This document shows positions 7,031 to 61,586 of a DNA stretch of 64,000 bases, piece after piece. Numbering within the stretch: the first letter of the stretch is position 1; each line of letters begins with the position of its first letter. The notes beneath the pieces were generated by a model. That model searched no databases and was not told the DNA's origin. It worked only from the letters and a program-made list of their open reading frames with translations. This DNA is from Bacteroidota bacterium (lineage in GTDB: Bacteria; Bacteroidota; Bacteroidia; JAIBAJ01): positions 679-64,678 of the forward strand of contig CANJNG010000001.1 in assembly GCA_947475205.1 (NCBI GenBank), read 5' to 3'. The position numbers were made by a program, and so were the translations under genes.

Positions 7031-9370
7031 TTACACCCGCACTCCCATCACCAAAATATCGTCTACTTGCACTTTATTGCCTTTAAACTCTTCGAGGTAG
7101 TTGCGAAGGAAGTTTCCCTGTTCAAACATGGGTGTATCTTGCATAGATAAAACAAGTTCTTTAAACCGCCGTTTGGTGAGTTTACGTTCGGGTTCGCCAC
7201 CAAACTGGTCGGCATAACCATCGCTGAACACATAAATGCTATCACCTTTTTCCAATTGAATGGTATGGTTTGTAAAAGGTAGCGAAGCATCATCGTATTT
7301 TCCAACCCCTTGATTATTCCCTTTTACTTCAATAAGCTCTCCTTTTCTTACAATCCAAAGTGGGTTGTTTGCTCCTGCCCATTGCAGCATATTGGTTTCT
7401 GGGTTAAACAGGCATAGCGAAGCATCCATCCCGTCGGAGATTTCATTTTCGCTTTTCGAGAAATTCTCTACCACTATCTCTGACACTTTATCTAATATTT
7501 TAGCTGGTTCGGTAATGCCAAATTCGCGTACCGCTCTGTTCAATGCATTATTGCACACCACCGAAACCATAGCCCCCGATACTCCGTGGCCTGTGCAGTC
7601 GCAGGCAGCGAACAATACAGATCCTTCCCAGCCACCAAGCCCCTCTCCATCTCTCCCCAAAGGGGAGAGGGCAAATGCCGTATCCTCGTTATGCGTTAGC
7701 CGCATTAACTCCTCCCCCTTTGGGGGAGGCTGGGAGGGGGCCTCCATCCAATAAAAATCCCCGGCAATAATATCTTTAGGCATATAAAGAACAAAGGAGT
7801 TTTGCAGATATTGCTTCACAATTTTGGTGGGTGGCAGTATGGCATTTTGTACCCGCAATGCACAGTTGATGGATTCGAGAATCTGAACGTTTTTGAATTC
7901 TACAATCTCTTTTTGGGTGATTACTTCTAAGCGTTGTTGTTCGATGGTATCGCGTTGCCGCAGGGTGATTTTGTATCGATTATAAACAAAAGCTATAAAA
8001 AGTGCGAGCACAATAAGCCCCACAATCAAGCCAATTCGGACGTTCTTTTGGTTTTTGATAACCAATTCCTGATTCTCTTTTTCTGTATTTAGTAGTTTTA
8101 TTTGTGCTTCCTTTTTTTCAGATTGATACTTCCCATCAAGTTCCTGAATTAGCTGAGCGTTGTTTTGCTGAGCTAGGCTATCGGTATAGTACACACAATC
8201 TTCATAATATTCATATGCCGCTTTGTAATCTCCGGCTTTATATTTTAAGGATGCTAAAGAACGCAGTGCATCGCACATCTTCACTAACCGCTTTTCCTCG
8301 TGGGTTTCGGCTATTTTAAGGGCAGTTTCGAGATATTCTCCCGCTTTGTCATATTGCTTCAATCGTCCATATATTTTGCCATAATATCGGTTAATGTTGA
8401 AATCAAATTGATTGATGTTATGCTCTTTCCCAATGGCTACCGCTTTATCTAAAAAGGATAAAGCCTTGGGAGAGTTATCGTCATAAATATAGAAATGGCT
8501 AAGGTTTACGATATACATAATCTGGCTAGCATAATCGTTTTGCTGTTCGGCAATTTGCACGGCTTTGGACAAATACTCTACTTCTTGGGCGTAGTTTTCC
8601 ATTTGCGAATACATATCTGCGGCCAGGGATAAGCCCTCGGCTTCGAGGCTCAAATCCTTAATTTCCTTAGCCAATCGTATCATTCTTTCATAGTATTCTA
8701 ACGATTGCTCATAGTTTTTTATGCGTTTGAACACCGAACCAACAAAATGCAGCAACTGCCCATAATCGGCTGTCATTATGTGATGCTTTTCATAAATATC
8801 TTGCGACTGCTGCATAAAATGCAAGGCAGTTGTATAGTCTTCCTTGTCGTAATAGTTTCGGCCTTTATCGCGAAGCAGCTTAGCTTCAAAGGCTATGTTT
8901 CCGGCCGGGAGATAGTCAAAAGCACTATCGTTATACATTAGGGCTTTTGAAGGCGAAAACTGAATTGCCCAACAGTGCGACATCAGGTAATAAAGCTCTG
9001 AAAGATATTTGGTGCTCTTAGTCTTTCGGGCTTCATCAATGCCGATTTGTATTGTAGGAAGAGCTTCTTCGGCCTGGTCAGCATCTAACCAGCCACGGCC
9101 AATTTTGAGGCAGCTGCGTTGTTTGTGATCTGAGTTCGTTTCTTTGGCAATATCGGCAAGCAGTTCCTGGGTTAAATGCTTTGCGGCCACCCTATCGGTA
9201 ATTACAAAATGGCGGAATATTCTGATTTTGGTGTTAATCCGTTCGGTATCGGATTTGGCTGCTGCAAGGGCTTTTTGAAGCGAATCGAGATTTGCTTTTT
9301 GGGAATAGGTTTTGGAATATCCCAAACAAAAGATGAGCAGGAAGCTCAAAACCCGAAATAAGTTTTTCAA
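7031..9370 (-). CDS. TPR-repeat sensor with a SpoIIE/PP2C-type serine phosphatase domain
   Basis: 779 aa. It has a signal peptide, multiple TPR-like repeats, one TM helix, and a C-terminal PP2C signature (GDFYW..., CDCTGHGVSGAMVS, FSDGYADQFGG). Confidence 0.8.
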   Translation of the reverse strand: MKNLFRVLSFLLIFCLGYSKTYSQKANLDSLQKALAAAKSDTERINTKIRIFRHFVITDRVAAKHLTQELLADIAKETNSDHKQRSCLKIGRGWLDADQAEEALPTIQIGIDEARKTKSTKYLSELYYLMSHCWAIQFSPSKALMYNDSAFDYLPAGNIAFEAKLLRDKGRNYYDKEDYTTALHFMQQSQDIYEKHHIMTADYGQLLHFVGSVFKRIKNYEQSLEYYERMIRLAKEIKDLSLEAEGLSLAADMYSQMENYAQEVEYLSKAVQIAEQQNDYASQIMYIVNLSHFYIYDDNSPKALSFLDKAVAIGKEHNINQFDFNINRYYGKIYGRLKQYDKAGEYLETALKIAETHEEKRLVKMCDALRSLASLKYKAGDYKAAYEYYEDCVYYTDSLAQQNNAQLIQELDGKYQSEKKEAQIKLLNTEKENQELVIKNQKNVRIGLIVGLIVLALFIAFVYNRYKITLRQRDTIEQQRLEVITQKEIVEFKNVQILESINCALRVQNAILPPTKIVKQYLQNSFVLYMPKDIIAGDFYWMEAPSQPPPKGEELMRLTHNEDTAFALSPLGRDGEGLGGWEGSVLFAACDCTGHGVSGAMVSVVCNNALNRAVREFGITEPAKILDKVSEIVVENFSKSENEISDGMDASLCLFNPETNMLQWAGANNPLWIVRKGELIEVKGNNQGVGKYDDASLPFTNHTIQLEKGDSIYVFSDGYADQFGGEPERKLTKRRFKELVLSMQDTPMFEQGNFLRNYLEEFKGNKVQVDDILVMGVRV

Positions 9371-9470
9371 AGCGTATATTTTGATGGCCGAAATTAATGC
9401 AATTTAAGAGCGAATGTTAAAATTCAGATGGAGGTAATTGTTCAATAAATTTCATTAGAAAGGAAAGCTA

Positions 9471-9511
9471 TACACAATATATTTATTGATAATCAATAAA
9501 TATATTGTGTA
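9471..9511. promoter_or_regulatory. perfect 41-bp palindrome (20-bp arms), candidate operator for the downstream XRE regulator
   Basis: TACACAATATATTTATTGAT-A-ATCAATAAATATATTGTGTA, with arms that are exact reverse complements. It lies in the divergent intergenic region, 39 bp upstream of the DUF2975 start. Confidence 0.5.
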
Positions 9512-9549
9512 ATTCAATGAATTCGATTTACATTTGCCGCCAATACTAA

Positions 9550-10338
9550 TTGTCATTTATGAAAAACTCATCACCCCTAAGCTTTATAAAAGGAATGTTT
9601 TGGTTCTTTCGGATTGGATTTTGGCTTCAATTGGTAATAATCTTTATTCAACTCTTTTTTAATTATGTAATGTATGACAGCGAGCAGGGTTTATACTTTA
9701 CAGTGCGGGGGAATATTTACGCCCATACTACACAGCCGCATCTTCCCAATTTACACCCTTTAGATTCAGTTATTCATAAAACACCCGCAACCTCCGTAAG
9801 TCGCAGCAAATATGGCGTAACAACATTGGATACAATTGGGAGCAAAACTATTTATATGTTCAACGGCCAGCAGTTTGGATTTTTGCGGGTTGATTACACT
9901 GAATTCACCAAGGCATTTACGGTTACAAATATGCTTTGGTTCTTGGCCGATATTTCATTTTTTCTGCTTTGGCTTATCATTACTTATCAGATTATGAAGA
10001 TACTTCAATCCATTAAGGATGAGGCTGTTTTTATTCAGCAGAATATAAAACGAATTACCTTCATCGGTTGGGCTTTTATTCTTATGACTTTTGTTGAAAT
10101 TGTAAAAGATCAGGTTTTTTTCTTAGTTGCAAAGCAGCACTTGCAGGATACAGGTCTTACCCTAATTTCAAATGTAAATTGGTATGATTTGGTTCCAATT
10201 TCATTGTATTCTGTTTCTTACGACACCATGAATCATTCCCGATTTCAAGGCATAGCTTTGGGCTTGATAATCCTGGTAATTGCTCAGATATTTAAAAACG
10301 GGTTTGAATTACAAAAAGAAAAGGACTTAACCATTTAA
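9550..10338 (+). CDS. DUF2975-like multi-pass membrane protein
   Basis: Hydrophobic protein with 4-5 TM helices. It sits 4 nt upstream of a short XRE HTH gene, which is the classic DUF2975/XRE pairing. The listed start may be too far upstream. Confidence 0.5.
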   Translation: MSFMKNSSPLSFIKGMFWFFRIGFWLQLVIIFIQLFFNYVMYDSEQGLYFTVRGNIYAHTTQPHLPNLHPLDSVIHKTPATSVSRSKYGVTTLDTIGSKTIYMFNGQQFGFLRVDYTEFTKAFTVTNMLWFLADISFFLLWLIITYQIMKILQSIKDEAVFIQQNIKRITFIGWAFILMTFVEIVKDQVFFLVAKQHLQDTGLTLISNVNWYDLVPISLYSVSYDTMNHSRFQGIALGLIILVIAQIFKNGFELQKEKDLTI

Positions 10339-10341
10339 GCT

Positions 10342-10548
10342 ATGCCTATAATTGTAAATCTTGATGTAATGATGGCGAAACGGAAAATGAGCCTTAATGA
10401 GCTATCTGAAAAAGTAGATATTACGCTATCTAATCTTTCCATTCTAAAAACAGGAAAAGCAAAAGCTATTCGTTTTAGTACGCTTGAAGCCCTTTGCAAA
10501 GCCTTAGACAGTCAGCCTTCGGATATTTTGGAATATAGGGAAGAGTGA
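10342..10548 (+). CDS. XRE-family (Cro/C1-type HTH) transcriptional regulator
   Basis: 68 aa. The MSLNELSEKVDITLSNLSILKTGKAKAIRFSTLEALCKAL sequence is a typical HTH_XRE. Confidence 0.85.
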   Translation: MPIIVNLDVMMAKRKMSLNELSEKVDITLSNLSILKTGKAKAIRFSTLEALCKALDSQPSDILEYREE

Positions 10549-14099: not shown

Positions 14100-14148
14100 A
14101 AAACAACAAGCCCCCTGCTTTTCTTAAAAGCAGGGGGCTTGTTGTTTC
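14100..14148. terminator. bidirectional rho-independent terminator between the convergent acd and bcp genes
   Basis: AACAACAAGCCCCCTGCTTTT-CTT-AAAAGCAGGGGGCTTGTTGTT. Long perfect stem with U-rich 3' ends on both strands. Confidence 0.7.
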
Positions 14149-25130: not shown

Positions 25131-25385
25131 ATTCTTTTTTGGAGCAGAACCTTTGGCATTTCAAGCCAACGTTTGGGTCCCGCTATCCGTTCCAAGTCCG
25201 CCAGCCCCACAAGCCAAACCCACTTCGGGCTTTCCACTCCTATCGGGGCTAAACCGAAAGGACCGTATTTCAAACTAACGGTTGCTAAAATACCCTTCGG
25301 CGGCTTTAATTACCCTTACCCTTCTACTCACCCCCTTCAATACACTTCACAAGCTTATCGTCACTATACTCACGTCAATAACTAC

Positions 25386-61518: not shown

Positions 61519-61532
61519 AAACCTTGCTAAAC

Positions 61533-61568
61533 AAAAAAGGCGATTTCTTTTAAGAAATCGCCTTTTTT
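61533..61568. terminator. bidirectional rho-independent terminator between nadC and the convergent TonB receptor gene
   Basis: AAAAAAGGCGATTTCTTTTAAGAAATCGCCTTTTTT. An A-tract and a T-tract flank a GC-containing hairpin. Confidence 0.8.
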
Positions 61569-61586
61569 GTTTATGTGAATTTGCAC

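What the first reader, a model, noticed from the sequence alone, without database searches (positions are those of the whole stretch)
9371..10548. Perfect 41-bp palindrome in front of a DUF2975-XRE two-gene module
The sequence at 9471-9511 has two exact 20-bp inverted arms, TACACAATATATTTATTGAT and its complement. It lies in the divergent promoter region directly upstream of a membrane protein gene and a 68-aa XRE HTH regulator gene separated by 4 nt. The length and perfection point to a dimeric operator, probably for the XRE protein itself. DUF2975/XRE modules are widespread but functionally uncharacterised.
Basis: seen in the sequence. Interest (0 to 1): 0.5.

Follow-up and report, generated by a model that had tools for sequence, protein, structure and literature searches.

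The report
Self-operator of a DUF2975–XRE module
The 41-bp palindrome is real and is very probably the binding site through which the neighbouring 68-residue repressor controls its own two-gene operon; it is one well-preserved example of a binding site conserved across many bacterial phyla, so it is a solid but fairly ordinary finding.

Summary
Observation confirmed. Window 9471-9511 is a perfect 20+1+20 palindrome, the only copy in 64 kb, and far longer than chance gives (simulated maximum arm 8-12).

Its centre (9482-9500, TTTATTG-ATAAT-CAATAAA) exactly matches a dyad I found upstream of the membrane-protein gene in 57 of 60 related metagenome loci. Of 80 sampled exact occurrences of the dyad in about 185,000 genomes, 51 lie at a DUF2975/XRE module, in Bacteroidota, Bacillota, Verrucomicrobiota and others. 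GC-adapted versions (TATCG-N5-CGATA) occur in Streptomyces.

Dyads form arrays phased by 21 bp. In canonical loci the dyad overlaps the -33 element and spacer of a Bacteroidota-type promoter, with the -7 box TAnnTTTG 7 nt downstream. In the window and its four closest relatives the strong dyad (O1) lies 21 bp upstream of a weak promoter-proximal dyad (O2, 9503-9521; -7 box 9529-9536). The palindrome is O1 plus the inner half-sites of its neighbours.

Most likely mechanism: negative autoregulation by XRE dimers loading cooperatively from O1 onto O2. Binding was not tested. REP element, terminator and RNA readings are rejected.

A 2026 preprint already predicted operators upstream of YoaS-YozG operons. 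The closest characterised analogue is CylR1/CylR2. Verdict: new member of a known kind, modest interest.

The parts
9471..9511 (.). Perfect 41-bp palindrome (20-nt arms, 1-nt centre at 9491). It consists of O1 plus flanking half-sites.
   Evidence: As single-stranded DNA it folds at -15.9 kcal/mol, z = -9.
9482..9500 (.). O1, the core operator dyad TTTATTG-ATAAT-CAATAAA. It matches the family consensus TTTATTG-N5-CAATAAA with 0 of 14 mismatches.
   Evidence: It is the only exact site in the window. The same dyad is found in 57 of 60 related loci.
9473..9479 (.). Outer left half-site CACAATA. It sits at the canonical -18..-12 register of a neighbouring dyad and mirrors 9503-9509. No partner half-site lies further upstream.
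   Evidence: right-type half-sites are enriched at -18 and -39 across 104 sites. The rest is a direct reading of the sequence.
9503..9521 (.). O2, a weak promoter-proximal dyad TATTGTG-TAATT-CAATGAA (4 of 14 mismatches), centred at 9512, which is +21 from O1. Its left half supplies the -33-like TGTG/TTG, 19 nt before the -7 box.
   Evidence: The four closest relatives (L211, L213, L214, L216) have the same O1/O2 pair 21 bp apart, with O2 at 3 of 14 mismatches.
9529..9536 (+). Putative Bacteroidota-type -7 promoter box TACATTTG (consensus TAnnTTTG), 7 nt after the right half of O2.
   Evidence: an exact TAnnTTTG starts at +16 to +18 in 44 of 104 related sites. The window has it at +38, which is +17 plus 21.. 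The motif alone is not enriched in the window; its value comes from its conserved position.
9559..10338 (+). DUF2975 membrane-protein gene (259 aa from ATG 9559). It has four hydrophobic segments, an extra loop of about 85 aa between TM1 and TM2, and a conserved C-terminal tail ...IFKNGFELQKEKDLTI.
10342..10548 (+). 68-aa HTH_26 (YozG-type XRE) regulator gene. It starts 3 nt after the DUF2975 stop, so translational coupling is likely.
   Evidence: AF2 model with pLDDT 80 and five helices. Foldseek matches to CylR2, SinR, 434 Cro and C.BclI.

Best explanation
The palindrome is the high-affinity operator (O1) of the 68-aa YozG-type HTH_26 protein encoded 850 bp downstream.

Proposed mechanism:
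1. A dimer of this protein recognises TTTATTG-N5-CAATAAA (9482-9500).
2. Further dimers load cooperatively at 21-bp (two-turn) intervals onto weaker neighbouring sites.
3. The important neighbour is O2 (9503-9521). It overlaps the -33 element and spacer of the DUF2975-XRE promoter (-7 box 9529-9536; predicted transcription start about 9541-9545).
4. Occupancy of O2 blocks RNA polymerase, so the two-gene operon represses itself.

The 41-bp length of the palindrome arises because O1 is flanked on both sides, in the family's canonical register, by mirror-image half-sites (CACAATA and TATTGTG).

What is shown: the sequence, its uniqueness in the window, the conservation of the dyad, its position and phasing, and its co-inheritance with the regulator across phyla.

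What is inferred: binding by the XRE protein, repression rather than activation, and O1-to-O2 cooperativity.

A further, weaker inference (about 0.3): the fast-evolving DUF2975 membrane protein senses a signal and relieves repression by acting on the repressor, as proposed for CylR1/CylR2.
For: 1. Exact consensus dyad, single copy in the window.
2. 57 of 60 loci encoding an XRE 84-93% identical carry the dyad (2 or fewer of 14 mismatches), centred 43-55 nt before the membrane-protein ATG.
3. In the motif-first test, 49 of 80 sampled exact sites in about 185,000 genomes have an XRE homologue (61-90% identity) in the same 8-kb locus, and in 48 of them the site lies upstream of the module. Two more loci are cut inside a DUF2975 ORF. 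Chance expectation is about 0.1%.
4. In the protein-first test on plasmids, 9-11 of 14 loci from six phyla have TATYG-N5-CRATA upstream of the operon, including a GC-rich Streptomyces locus (TCTATCG-ATATT-CGATAGA). A GC-rich Opitutae genome from the motif-first scan also keeps the AT-rich site.
5. In canonical loci the dyad spans the -33 element and spacer, and the -7 box starts 7 nt after its right half. That is a repressor-type position.
6. Phasing: second dyads occur at -21 in 31 of 104 sites and at +21 in 13 of 104. Half-sites peak at -39, -30, -18, -9, +3 and +12.
7. The four closest relatives of the window's DUF2975 share the O1 (strong) / O2 (weak) / 7 nt / -7 box layout.
8. The regulator is a Cro/C1-type five-helix HTH. 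It is extremely conserved, with median pairwise identity 88% against 36% for its membrane partner. This fits a conserved DNA target.
Against: - No binding, transcription-start or expression data exist for this locus or for any family member.
- In this locus the perfect dyad is centred about 50 bp upstream of the predicted start, outside the core promoter. Repression therefore depends on a weak O2 (4 of 14 mismatches) or on oligomerisation, and an activator or dual role is not excluded.
- The -7 box assignment rests on positional conservation only. TAnnTTTG is not enriched in the window (71 found, 76 expected).
- Twenty-nine of the 80 sampled motif sites had no XRE nearby. About nine lie inside ORFs and look like chance. 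The rest are unexplained and could be further targets or divergent modules.
Confidence: 0.8

Rival explanations
1. The XRE protein binds the palindrome but works as an activator, or as a dual regulator, of the DUF2975-XRE promoter and/or the divergent TPR-SpoIIE gene, rather than as an autorepressor.
For: In the window O1 is centred about 50 bp upstream of the predicted start, upstream of the -33 element. That is a position typical of activators. The region is divergent.
Against: In most related loci the same dyad lies between -33 and -7, a position that blocks RNA polymerase. The upstream neighbour differs among relatives (M61 peptidase in L211, SnoaL in L213), so the divergent gene is not a conserved target. 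The closest structural analogues (CylR2, SinR, Cro, C-proteins) are mainly repressors.
Confidence: 0.1
2. The site is bound by a different host factor, such as a global AT-rich DNA binder, and its association with the XRE gene is indirect.
For: The motif is AT-rich. Twenty-nine of the 80 sampled exact sites lack a nearby XRE gene.
Against: The dyad moves with the module between phyla and onto plasmids of unrelated hosts, and it stays AT-rich or keeps its N5 dyad geometry even in GC-rich genomes. No other protein is constant in the neighbourhood. Dyad symmetry with fixed N5 spacing suits a small HTH dimer.
Confidence: 0.05
3. The palindrome is a structural or mobile element: a REP-like repeat, an intrinsic or bidirectional terminator, an RNA hairpin, or a cruciform with no protein-specific role. 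Alternatively it is a chance product of AT-rich DNA.
For: As a single strand it would fold well (-15.9 kcal/mol, z = -9). Perfect long palindromes can be made by template-switch repair.
Against: It is single copy in 64 kb. Both flanking genes point away from it, so there is nothing to terminate. The stem is AT-rich, with 3 G/C in each 20-nt arm and no T-run, unlike the two terminator-like palindromes elsewhere in the window. No Rfam family matches near threshold. Across loci the half-site sequence is conserved while the 5-nt spacer varies freely; this is the signature of a protein site, not of an RNA or DNA stem. The two IMG/VR hits to the arm are isolated single arms. Simulated maximum arm is 8-12.
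Confidence: 0.03

Closest known systems
Putative operators upstream of YoaS-YozG (DUF2975 + Cro/C1 HTH) operons, reported as sparse-autoencoder feature #790 in bioRxiv 10.64898/2026.09.15.751765 (2026)
   Same: Same gene pair, same AT-rich upstream inverted repeats, and the same proposed role as an autoregulatory operator.
   Different: The preprint calls the repeats 'sequence-diverse' and illustrates Bacillota. It cites only lambda Cro as precedent and gives no consensus. Here the repeats resolve into one conserved dyad (TTTATTG-N5-CAATAAA, more broadly TATYG-N5-CRATA) in 21-bp phased arrays with a fixed relation to the promoter. Neither study includes an experiment.
CylR1/CylR2 of the Enterococcus faecalis cytolysin operon
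   Same: A small multi-pass membrane protein gene is followed by a roughly 66-aa HTH-only repressor. The repressor binds an inverted repeat in overlapping divergent promoters, and there is no phosphorelay (PMC3709268). CylR2 (1utx) is among the best fold matches over the whole chain, with TM 0.81-0.83.
   Different: Sequence identity is only about 21%. The window protein scores on HTH_26, and phmmer against PDB sequences found nothing at E <= 0.01. CylR1 has three predicted TM helices, and its relation to DUF2975 was not tested. CylR2 controls a toxin operon, whereas this module appears to control only itself.
Lambdoid Cro/CI and 434 repressor operator arrays (OR1-OR3), and the OL/OR sites of restriction-modification controller C-proteins (C.AhdI, C.BclI)
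   Same: Five-helix HTH dimers bind dyad sites about 14-19 bp long. Adjacent sites of unequal strength are filled cooperatively and overlap the promoter of the regulator's own operon. 434 Cro, P22 c2, C.BclI and C.AhdI are fold matches.
   Different: There is no phage or restriction-modification context. Site spacing is 21 bp, and the partner gene encodes a membrane protein. Cooperativity is inferred from phasing only.
VanU(G) (PDB 3tyr/3tys)
   Same: It is the only solved structure detectable by sequence profile (E = 5e-5, about 30% identity). It is also a short HTH-only XRE regulator.
   Different: It belongs to a different operon (vanG resistance cluster, from my own knowledge) and has no DUF2975 partner.

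Membership tests
Pfam HTH_26 (Cro/C1-type HTH; YozG-like regulators) | HMM score above the gathering threshold over the whole domain | tested here: met
   76.5 bits against a cut-off of 22, E = 1.9e-21, residues 6-66 matching profile positions 1-61 of 63.
Pfam HTH_26 (Cro/C1-type HTH; YozG-like regulators) | Five-helix lambda-repressor-like fold | tested here: met
   AF2 model with pLDDT 80 and helices at 7-14, 18-25, 29-37, 45-54 and 59-62. Foldseek TM 0.7-0.83 to CylR2, SinR, 434 Cro and C.BclI.
DUF2975 (YoaS-like membrane proteins) | PF11188 HMM score above threshold, and a multi-pass membrane protein | tested here: met
   48.8 bits against 27; four hydrophobic segments of 19 residues.
YoaS-YozG type two-gene module | Membrane-protein gene immediately followed, on the same strand with a gap of a few nucleotides, by the short HTH gene | tested here: met
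   the gap is 3 nt in the window. A 160-220 aa ORF ends 1-4 nt before the XRE gene in nearly all of the 80 related loci.
Family operator TTTATTG-N5-CAATAAA (defined here) | Dyad with N5 spacing and 2 or fewer of 14 mismatches within about 100 nt upstream of the module | tested here: met
   0 mismatches at 9482-9500, 68 nt before ATG 9559.
Family operator TTTATTG-N5-CAATAAA (defined here) | Main dyad overlaps the -33 element and spacer, with the -7 box starting 7 nt after its right half | tested here: not met
   the -7 box starts at +38 in the window instead of +17. The canonical position is occupied by the weak O2. The same variant layout is found in the four closest relatives.
Autoregulatory operator (functional class) | Specific binding by the product of the regulated operon, and a change in transcription when the site or the regulator is removed | not testable with these tools
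   Needs EMSA or footprinting, DAP-seq, or reporter or RNA data.
REP / interspersed palindromic repeat | Many dispersed copies per genome | tested here: not met
   the 41-bp palindrome (two arms, one locus) is its only occurrence in 64 kb; the same single site is present in nine contigs of the same species. The whole source genome could not be scanned (one search was truncated).
Intrinsic or bidirectional terminator | G+C-rich stem followed by a T-run, located at the 3' end of a gene | tested here: not met
   the stem is AT-rich, no terminator-like call was made at this site, and both neighbouring genes start here rather than end.
CylR1/CylR2 system | Sequence homology of both proteins to CylR1 and CylR2 | tested here: inconclusive
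   the HTH has a similar fold (TM 0.81-0.83) at about 21% identity and shows no significant sequence hit. CylR1 against DUF2975 was not tested. I treat the system as an analogue, not as the same family.

The most novel reading that the evidence does not exclude
DUF2975-YozG modules may be a pan-bacterial, phosphorelay-free membrane-to-DNA signalling device of the CylR1/CylR2 type. A nearly invariant 68-aa repressor would sit on a nearly invariant, 21-bp phased operator array. A rapidly diversifying membrane partner would sense different signals and capture or release the repressor through its conserved cytoplasmic C-terminal tail (...F-K-R-G-x-E-x-Q-x-E-N-D-L-T-V). The window's perfect palindrome would then be an unusually strong nucleation site of such a switch.
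Probability: 0.3. Interest if true: 0.6.

Novelty: new member of a known kind. Interest (0 to 1): 0.32.

Why it matters
For this window, the result turns a striking palindrome into an interpretable promoter-operator map: O1, O2, the -33 and -7 elements, and a corrected start codon.

More broadly, the DUF2975/YozG pair is very widespread. The protein search returned 8,000 or more homologues, from many phyla and from plasmids. It has no known function, and only four papers in the library mention DUF2975 at all.

This work provides three things that should make the family experimentally tractable:
- One conserved dyad serves the whole family.
- The dyads have a fixed 21-bp phasing.
- The dyad has a defined relation to the promoter.

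With these, EMSA or DAP-seq probes, reporter constructs and regulon scans can be designed directly. The work also points to CylR1/CylR2 as a testable mechanistic model. The finding does not reveal a new kind of system.

Tried and rejected
- **Same-species contigs.** The intergenic region is 100% identical in all nine, so they carry no comparative information.
- **Genome-wide copy test in the source genome.** I used it instead as a motif-first specificity test.
- **Sequence searches of PDB.** phmmer with the single sequence found nothing. A profile found only VanUg.
- **Rfam on the region.** Only spurious miRNA-hairpin hits far below threshold.
- **Sigma-70 promoter and terminator scan.** Uninformative, because Bacteroidota promoters are not covered.
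- **TAnnTTTG in the window.** Not enriched overall, so a match on its own means little.
- **A possible natural DUF2975-XRE fusion in Opitutae L168.** It turned out to be an open alternative frame in GC-rich DNA.
- **My first idea about O2.** I thought the left half of the window's O2 was displaced by 2 bp, giving an N7 spacer. I dropped this after a position-by-position comparison with relatives. In the canonical N5 register, O2 differs from the relatives' TATTTTG by a single T-to-G at 9507.
- **A promoter for the divergent TPR-SpoIIE gene.** No TAnnTTTG lies on the minus strand in 9371-9558.
- **The first 'YozG' literature search.** It was swamped by 'Yozgat'.
- **The arm 20-mer in IMG/VR.** Two isolated single-arm chance matches.

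Full report
**1. The observation**

The sequence at window 9471-9511 is TACACAATATATTTATTGAT-A-ATCAATAAATATATTGTGTA. The two 20-nt arms are 100% complementary around a single central base.

The arm occurs nowhere else in the 64-kb window, even with three mismatches (expected 0.04). Only three perfect palindromes in the window have arms of 20 nt or more. The other two (14101-14147 and 61528-61573) have G+C-rich cores and sit like terminators. In 100 first-order Markov simulations of the window the longest arm was 8-12 nt.

- On the plus strand, a DUF2975 protein (PF11188, 48.8 bits) followed by a 68-aa HTH_26 protein (PF13443, 76.5 bits).
- On the minus strand, upstream, a divergent TPR-SpoIIE gene at 7031-9370.

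The gap between the two module genes is 3 nt, not 4. The DUF2975 gene most likely starts at ATG 9559, because all seven non-identical relatives align over the full 259 aa. Public gene calls start it at 9595.

**2. What the palindrome is**

Nine contigs of the same species carry an identical intergenic region and so tell nothing. I therefore collected 80 metagenome loci encoding an XRE protein 84-93% identical to the window's. Nearly all have a 160-220 aa ORF ending 1-4 nt before the XRE gene.

An unbiased palindrome search upstream of that ORF kept finding the same sequence. A directed search then found TTTATTG-N5-CAATAAA, with 2 or fewer of 14 mismatches, in 57 of 60 loci. Its centre usually lies 43-55 nt before the first ATG. 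The half-sites are conserved while the 5-nt spacer varies (mostly TTTAT or TTTTT). This is the pattern expected of a dimeric protein site, not of a nucleic-acid stem.

The window's central 19 bp (9482-9500, TTTATTG-ATAAT-CAATAAA) is an exact instance of this dyad. It is the only exact one in the window.

**3. Specificity, tested from the motif side**

I scanned one genome from each of about 185,000 species for TTTATTGWTWWTCAATAAA.
- In 49 loci an XRE homologue (61-90% identical) lies in the same 8-kb stretch.
- In 48 of those the motif is just upstream of a DUF2975-like ORF followed by the XRE gene.
- Two further loci end inside a DUF2975 ORF.

The hosts include Bacteroidota, Bacillota (Lachnospiraceae, Exiguobacterium, Izimaplasma), Verrucomicrobiota, Zixibacteria and some Pseudomonadota MAGs. 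A random site would lie this close to such a gene about once in a thousand.

Of the 29 sites with no XRE gene nearby, about nine are inside long ORFs and look like chance. Several others are extended palindromes in Bacillota, upstream of small membrane ORFs. These remain unexplained.

**4. Specificity, tested from the protein side**

tblastn of the XRE protein against plasmids found 228 records at 41-89% identity. I inspected 14 of them.

| Host | Site upstream of the operon |
|---|---|
| Priestia, B. cereus | TTTATTG-TAAAA-CGATAAA; B. cereus has a second dyad 21 bp away |
| E. faecium | two dyads 21 bp apart |
| Streptococcus, Anaerococcus | two perfect dyads 30-31 bp apart |
| B. mycoides | TATATCG-TAAAA-CAATAAA |
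| Legionella | ATTGTTG-AAAAA-CGATAAT |
| Streptomyces melanogenes | TCTATCG-ATATT-CGATAGA |
| Gemmatirosa | related ATCGAT-rich palindrome |

The family consensus is therefore TATYG-N5-CRATA. Separately, a GC-rich Opitutae genome from the motif-first scan of section 3 keeps the AT-rich form.

The site is inherited together with the module in unrelated hosts and replicons. The only protein that always accompanies it is the XRE regulator.

**5. Architecture**

I aligned 104 sites on the dyad centre. The alignment shows:
- symmetric flanks (ATA at -12..-10, TAT at +10..+12);
- a Bacteroidota-type -7 box (TAnnTTTG) starting at +16 to +18 in 44 sites, which is 7 nt after the right half-site;
- the TTG of the left half-site at the position where the -33 element is expected, 19 nt before the -7 box. 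The -33/-7 consensus is taken from my own knowledge of Bacteroidota promoters.

A protein on this dyad would therefore cover the -33 element and the spacer.

Second dyads (4 or fewer of 14 mismatches) pile up at exactly -21 (31 sites) and +21 (13 sites). Half-sites peak at -39, -30, -18, -9, +3 and +12. The sites thus form arrays phased by two helical turns.

**6. The window's own layout**

The window's DUF2975 belongs to a small subfamily of long proteins (248-263 aa). Four relatives (L211, L213, L214, L216) all show the same order: a strong upstream dyad O1, a weaker dyad O2 centred 21 bp downstream (3 of 14 mismatches), exactly 7 nt, and then the -7 box.

The window follows this layout:
- O1 at 9482-9500
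- O2 at 9503-9521, TATTGTG-TAATT-CAATGAA (4 of 14 mismatches)
- 7 nt
- TACATTTG at 9529-9536
- ATG 9559, 22 nt further on

So the perfect dyad lies one 21-bp register further upstream than in canonical loci.

The 41-bp palindrome is O1, plus 2-nt linkers, plus the inner half-sites of its two neighbours in the canonical register: CACAATA at -18..-12 and TATTGTG at +12..+18. No left half of a '-21' dyad is present.

Comparable four-half-site palindromes occur in L077 (21-nt arms) and L049. The window is therefore at the long end of a family norm rather than unique. Whether the perfect symmetry of the outer arms reflects selection or template-switch repair cannot be decided from the sequence.

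**7. Mechanism**

The regulator is a five-helix Cro/C1-type HTH (AF2 pLDDT 80). Its closest folds are CylR2, the N-terminal domain of SaPI2 Stl, SinR, C.BclI, 434 Cro and P22 c2. By sequence profile the only solved relative is VanUg.

It is exceptionally conserved. Median pairwise identity is 88%, against 36% for the membrane partner in the same loci. This fits a conserved DNA target.

I conclude, with confidence of about 0.8, that XRE dimers bind O1 and repress their own operon. In this locus repression probably works through cooperative filling of O2, which overlaps the promoter. Binding, the sign of regulation and cooperativity are all inferences.

The DUF2975 partners keep a conserved C-terminal tail (IFKRGIEIQxENDLTV; in the window IFKNGFELQKEKDLTI). 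This tail is a candidate contact for the repressor. It is a hypothesis only.

**8. Rivals**

- **Activator or dual role.** Possible for this locus because O1 lies upstream of the -33 element, but the canonical position argues for repression.
- **Another host factor.** Unlikely, given co-transfer of the site with the module.
- **REP element, terminator, RNA or chance.** Rejected. The site is single copy, no gene ends here, the stem is AT-rich with no T-run, and there is no Rfam match. Half-sites are conserved while the spacer varies. The only external hits to the arm are two isolated single arms in viral contigs.

**9. What is already known**

- Makarova et al. 2009 listed an Xre/YoaS-like gene association (PMC2701414).
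- A September 2026 preprint reports that a language-model feature fires on AT-rich, 'sequence-diverse' inverted repeats upstream of YoaS-YozG operons. It proposes autoregulatory operators and cites only lambda Cro as precedent.
- No experimental work on the family was found. Only four papers mention DUF2975.
- The best-characterised analogue is CylR1/CylR2 of E. faecalis: a membrane protein plus a 66-aa HTH repressor acting on an inverted repeat in divergent promoters, with no phosphorelay (PMC3709268). At about 21% identity it is an analogue, not the same family.

**10. Verdict**

The element is a new, well-preserved member of an already predicted kind of site.

This analysis adds the family consensus, the 21-bp phasing, the promoter relation and the O1/O2 variant layout. 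Interest is modest (0.32). The wider module remains an attractive uncharacterised system.

Noticed in passing
window 25172-25254 (-): Flavo-1 RNA (RF01705) at 46.3 bits, above the gathering score of 42. It is the only Rfam family hit in the window and fits a Bacteroidota origin. No tRNA genes were found in the 64 kb.
   Followed up: no
window 14101-14147 and 61528-61573: Two further perfect palindromes with 22-nt arms and G+C-rich cores flanked by A/T runs. The first begins 10 nt after the acyl-CoA dehydrogenase stop. Both look like bidirectional terminators.
   Followed up: no
window 9559-9597: Public gene calls start the DUF2975 gene at 9595 (247 aa). All relatives align over the full 259 aa from ATG 9559, and the promoter geometry also fits 9559. 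The start is probably mis-annotated.
   Followed up: partly
window 10290-10338, and the DUF2975 ORFs of L011-L090: The membrane partners are only about 36% identical to each other, yet all end in a conserved tail, IFKRGIEIQxENDLTV. The adjacent XRE proteins are about 88% identical. The tail may be the contact point for the repressor.
   Followed up: partly
window 9660-9930: The window's DUF2975 has an extra, presumably extracytoplasmic loop of about 85 aa between the first two hydrophobic segments. Typical family members are 160-185 aa. Only seven non-identical relatives share this form.
   Followed up: partly
window 9441-9456 and 9513-9528: A 16-nt direct repeat, TTCAATAAATTTCATT and TTCAATGAATTCGATT (81% identical, 72 nt apart). 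The second copy contains the right half of O2. The first contains an isolated CAATAAA half-site (9443-9449) with no partner. Its meaning is unknown.
   Followed up: partly
L133 (Clostridiales), L140 (Bacillus cereus), L092 (Tissierellales), L126, L127: Exact operator dyads, some inside extended palindromes (for example GTCAATAATAATTTATTGTTTATCAATAAATTATTATTGAC), with no detectable YozG-type XRE gene in the locus. Some lie upstream of small membrane ORFs. They could be extra regulon members or divergent modules.
   Followed up: partly
L211 2630-3532; L228 2004-3201: In some relatives an ABC-transporter ATPase gene follows the DUF2975-XRE pair on the same strand. In the window the next gene is convergent and dapD-like. 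Downstream cargo of the module therefore varies.
   Followed up: no
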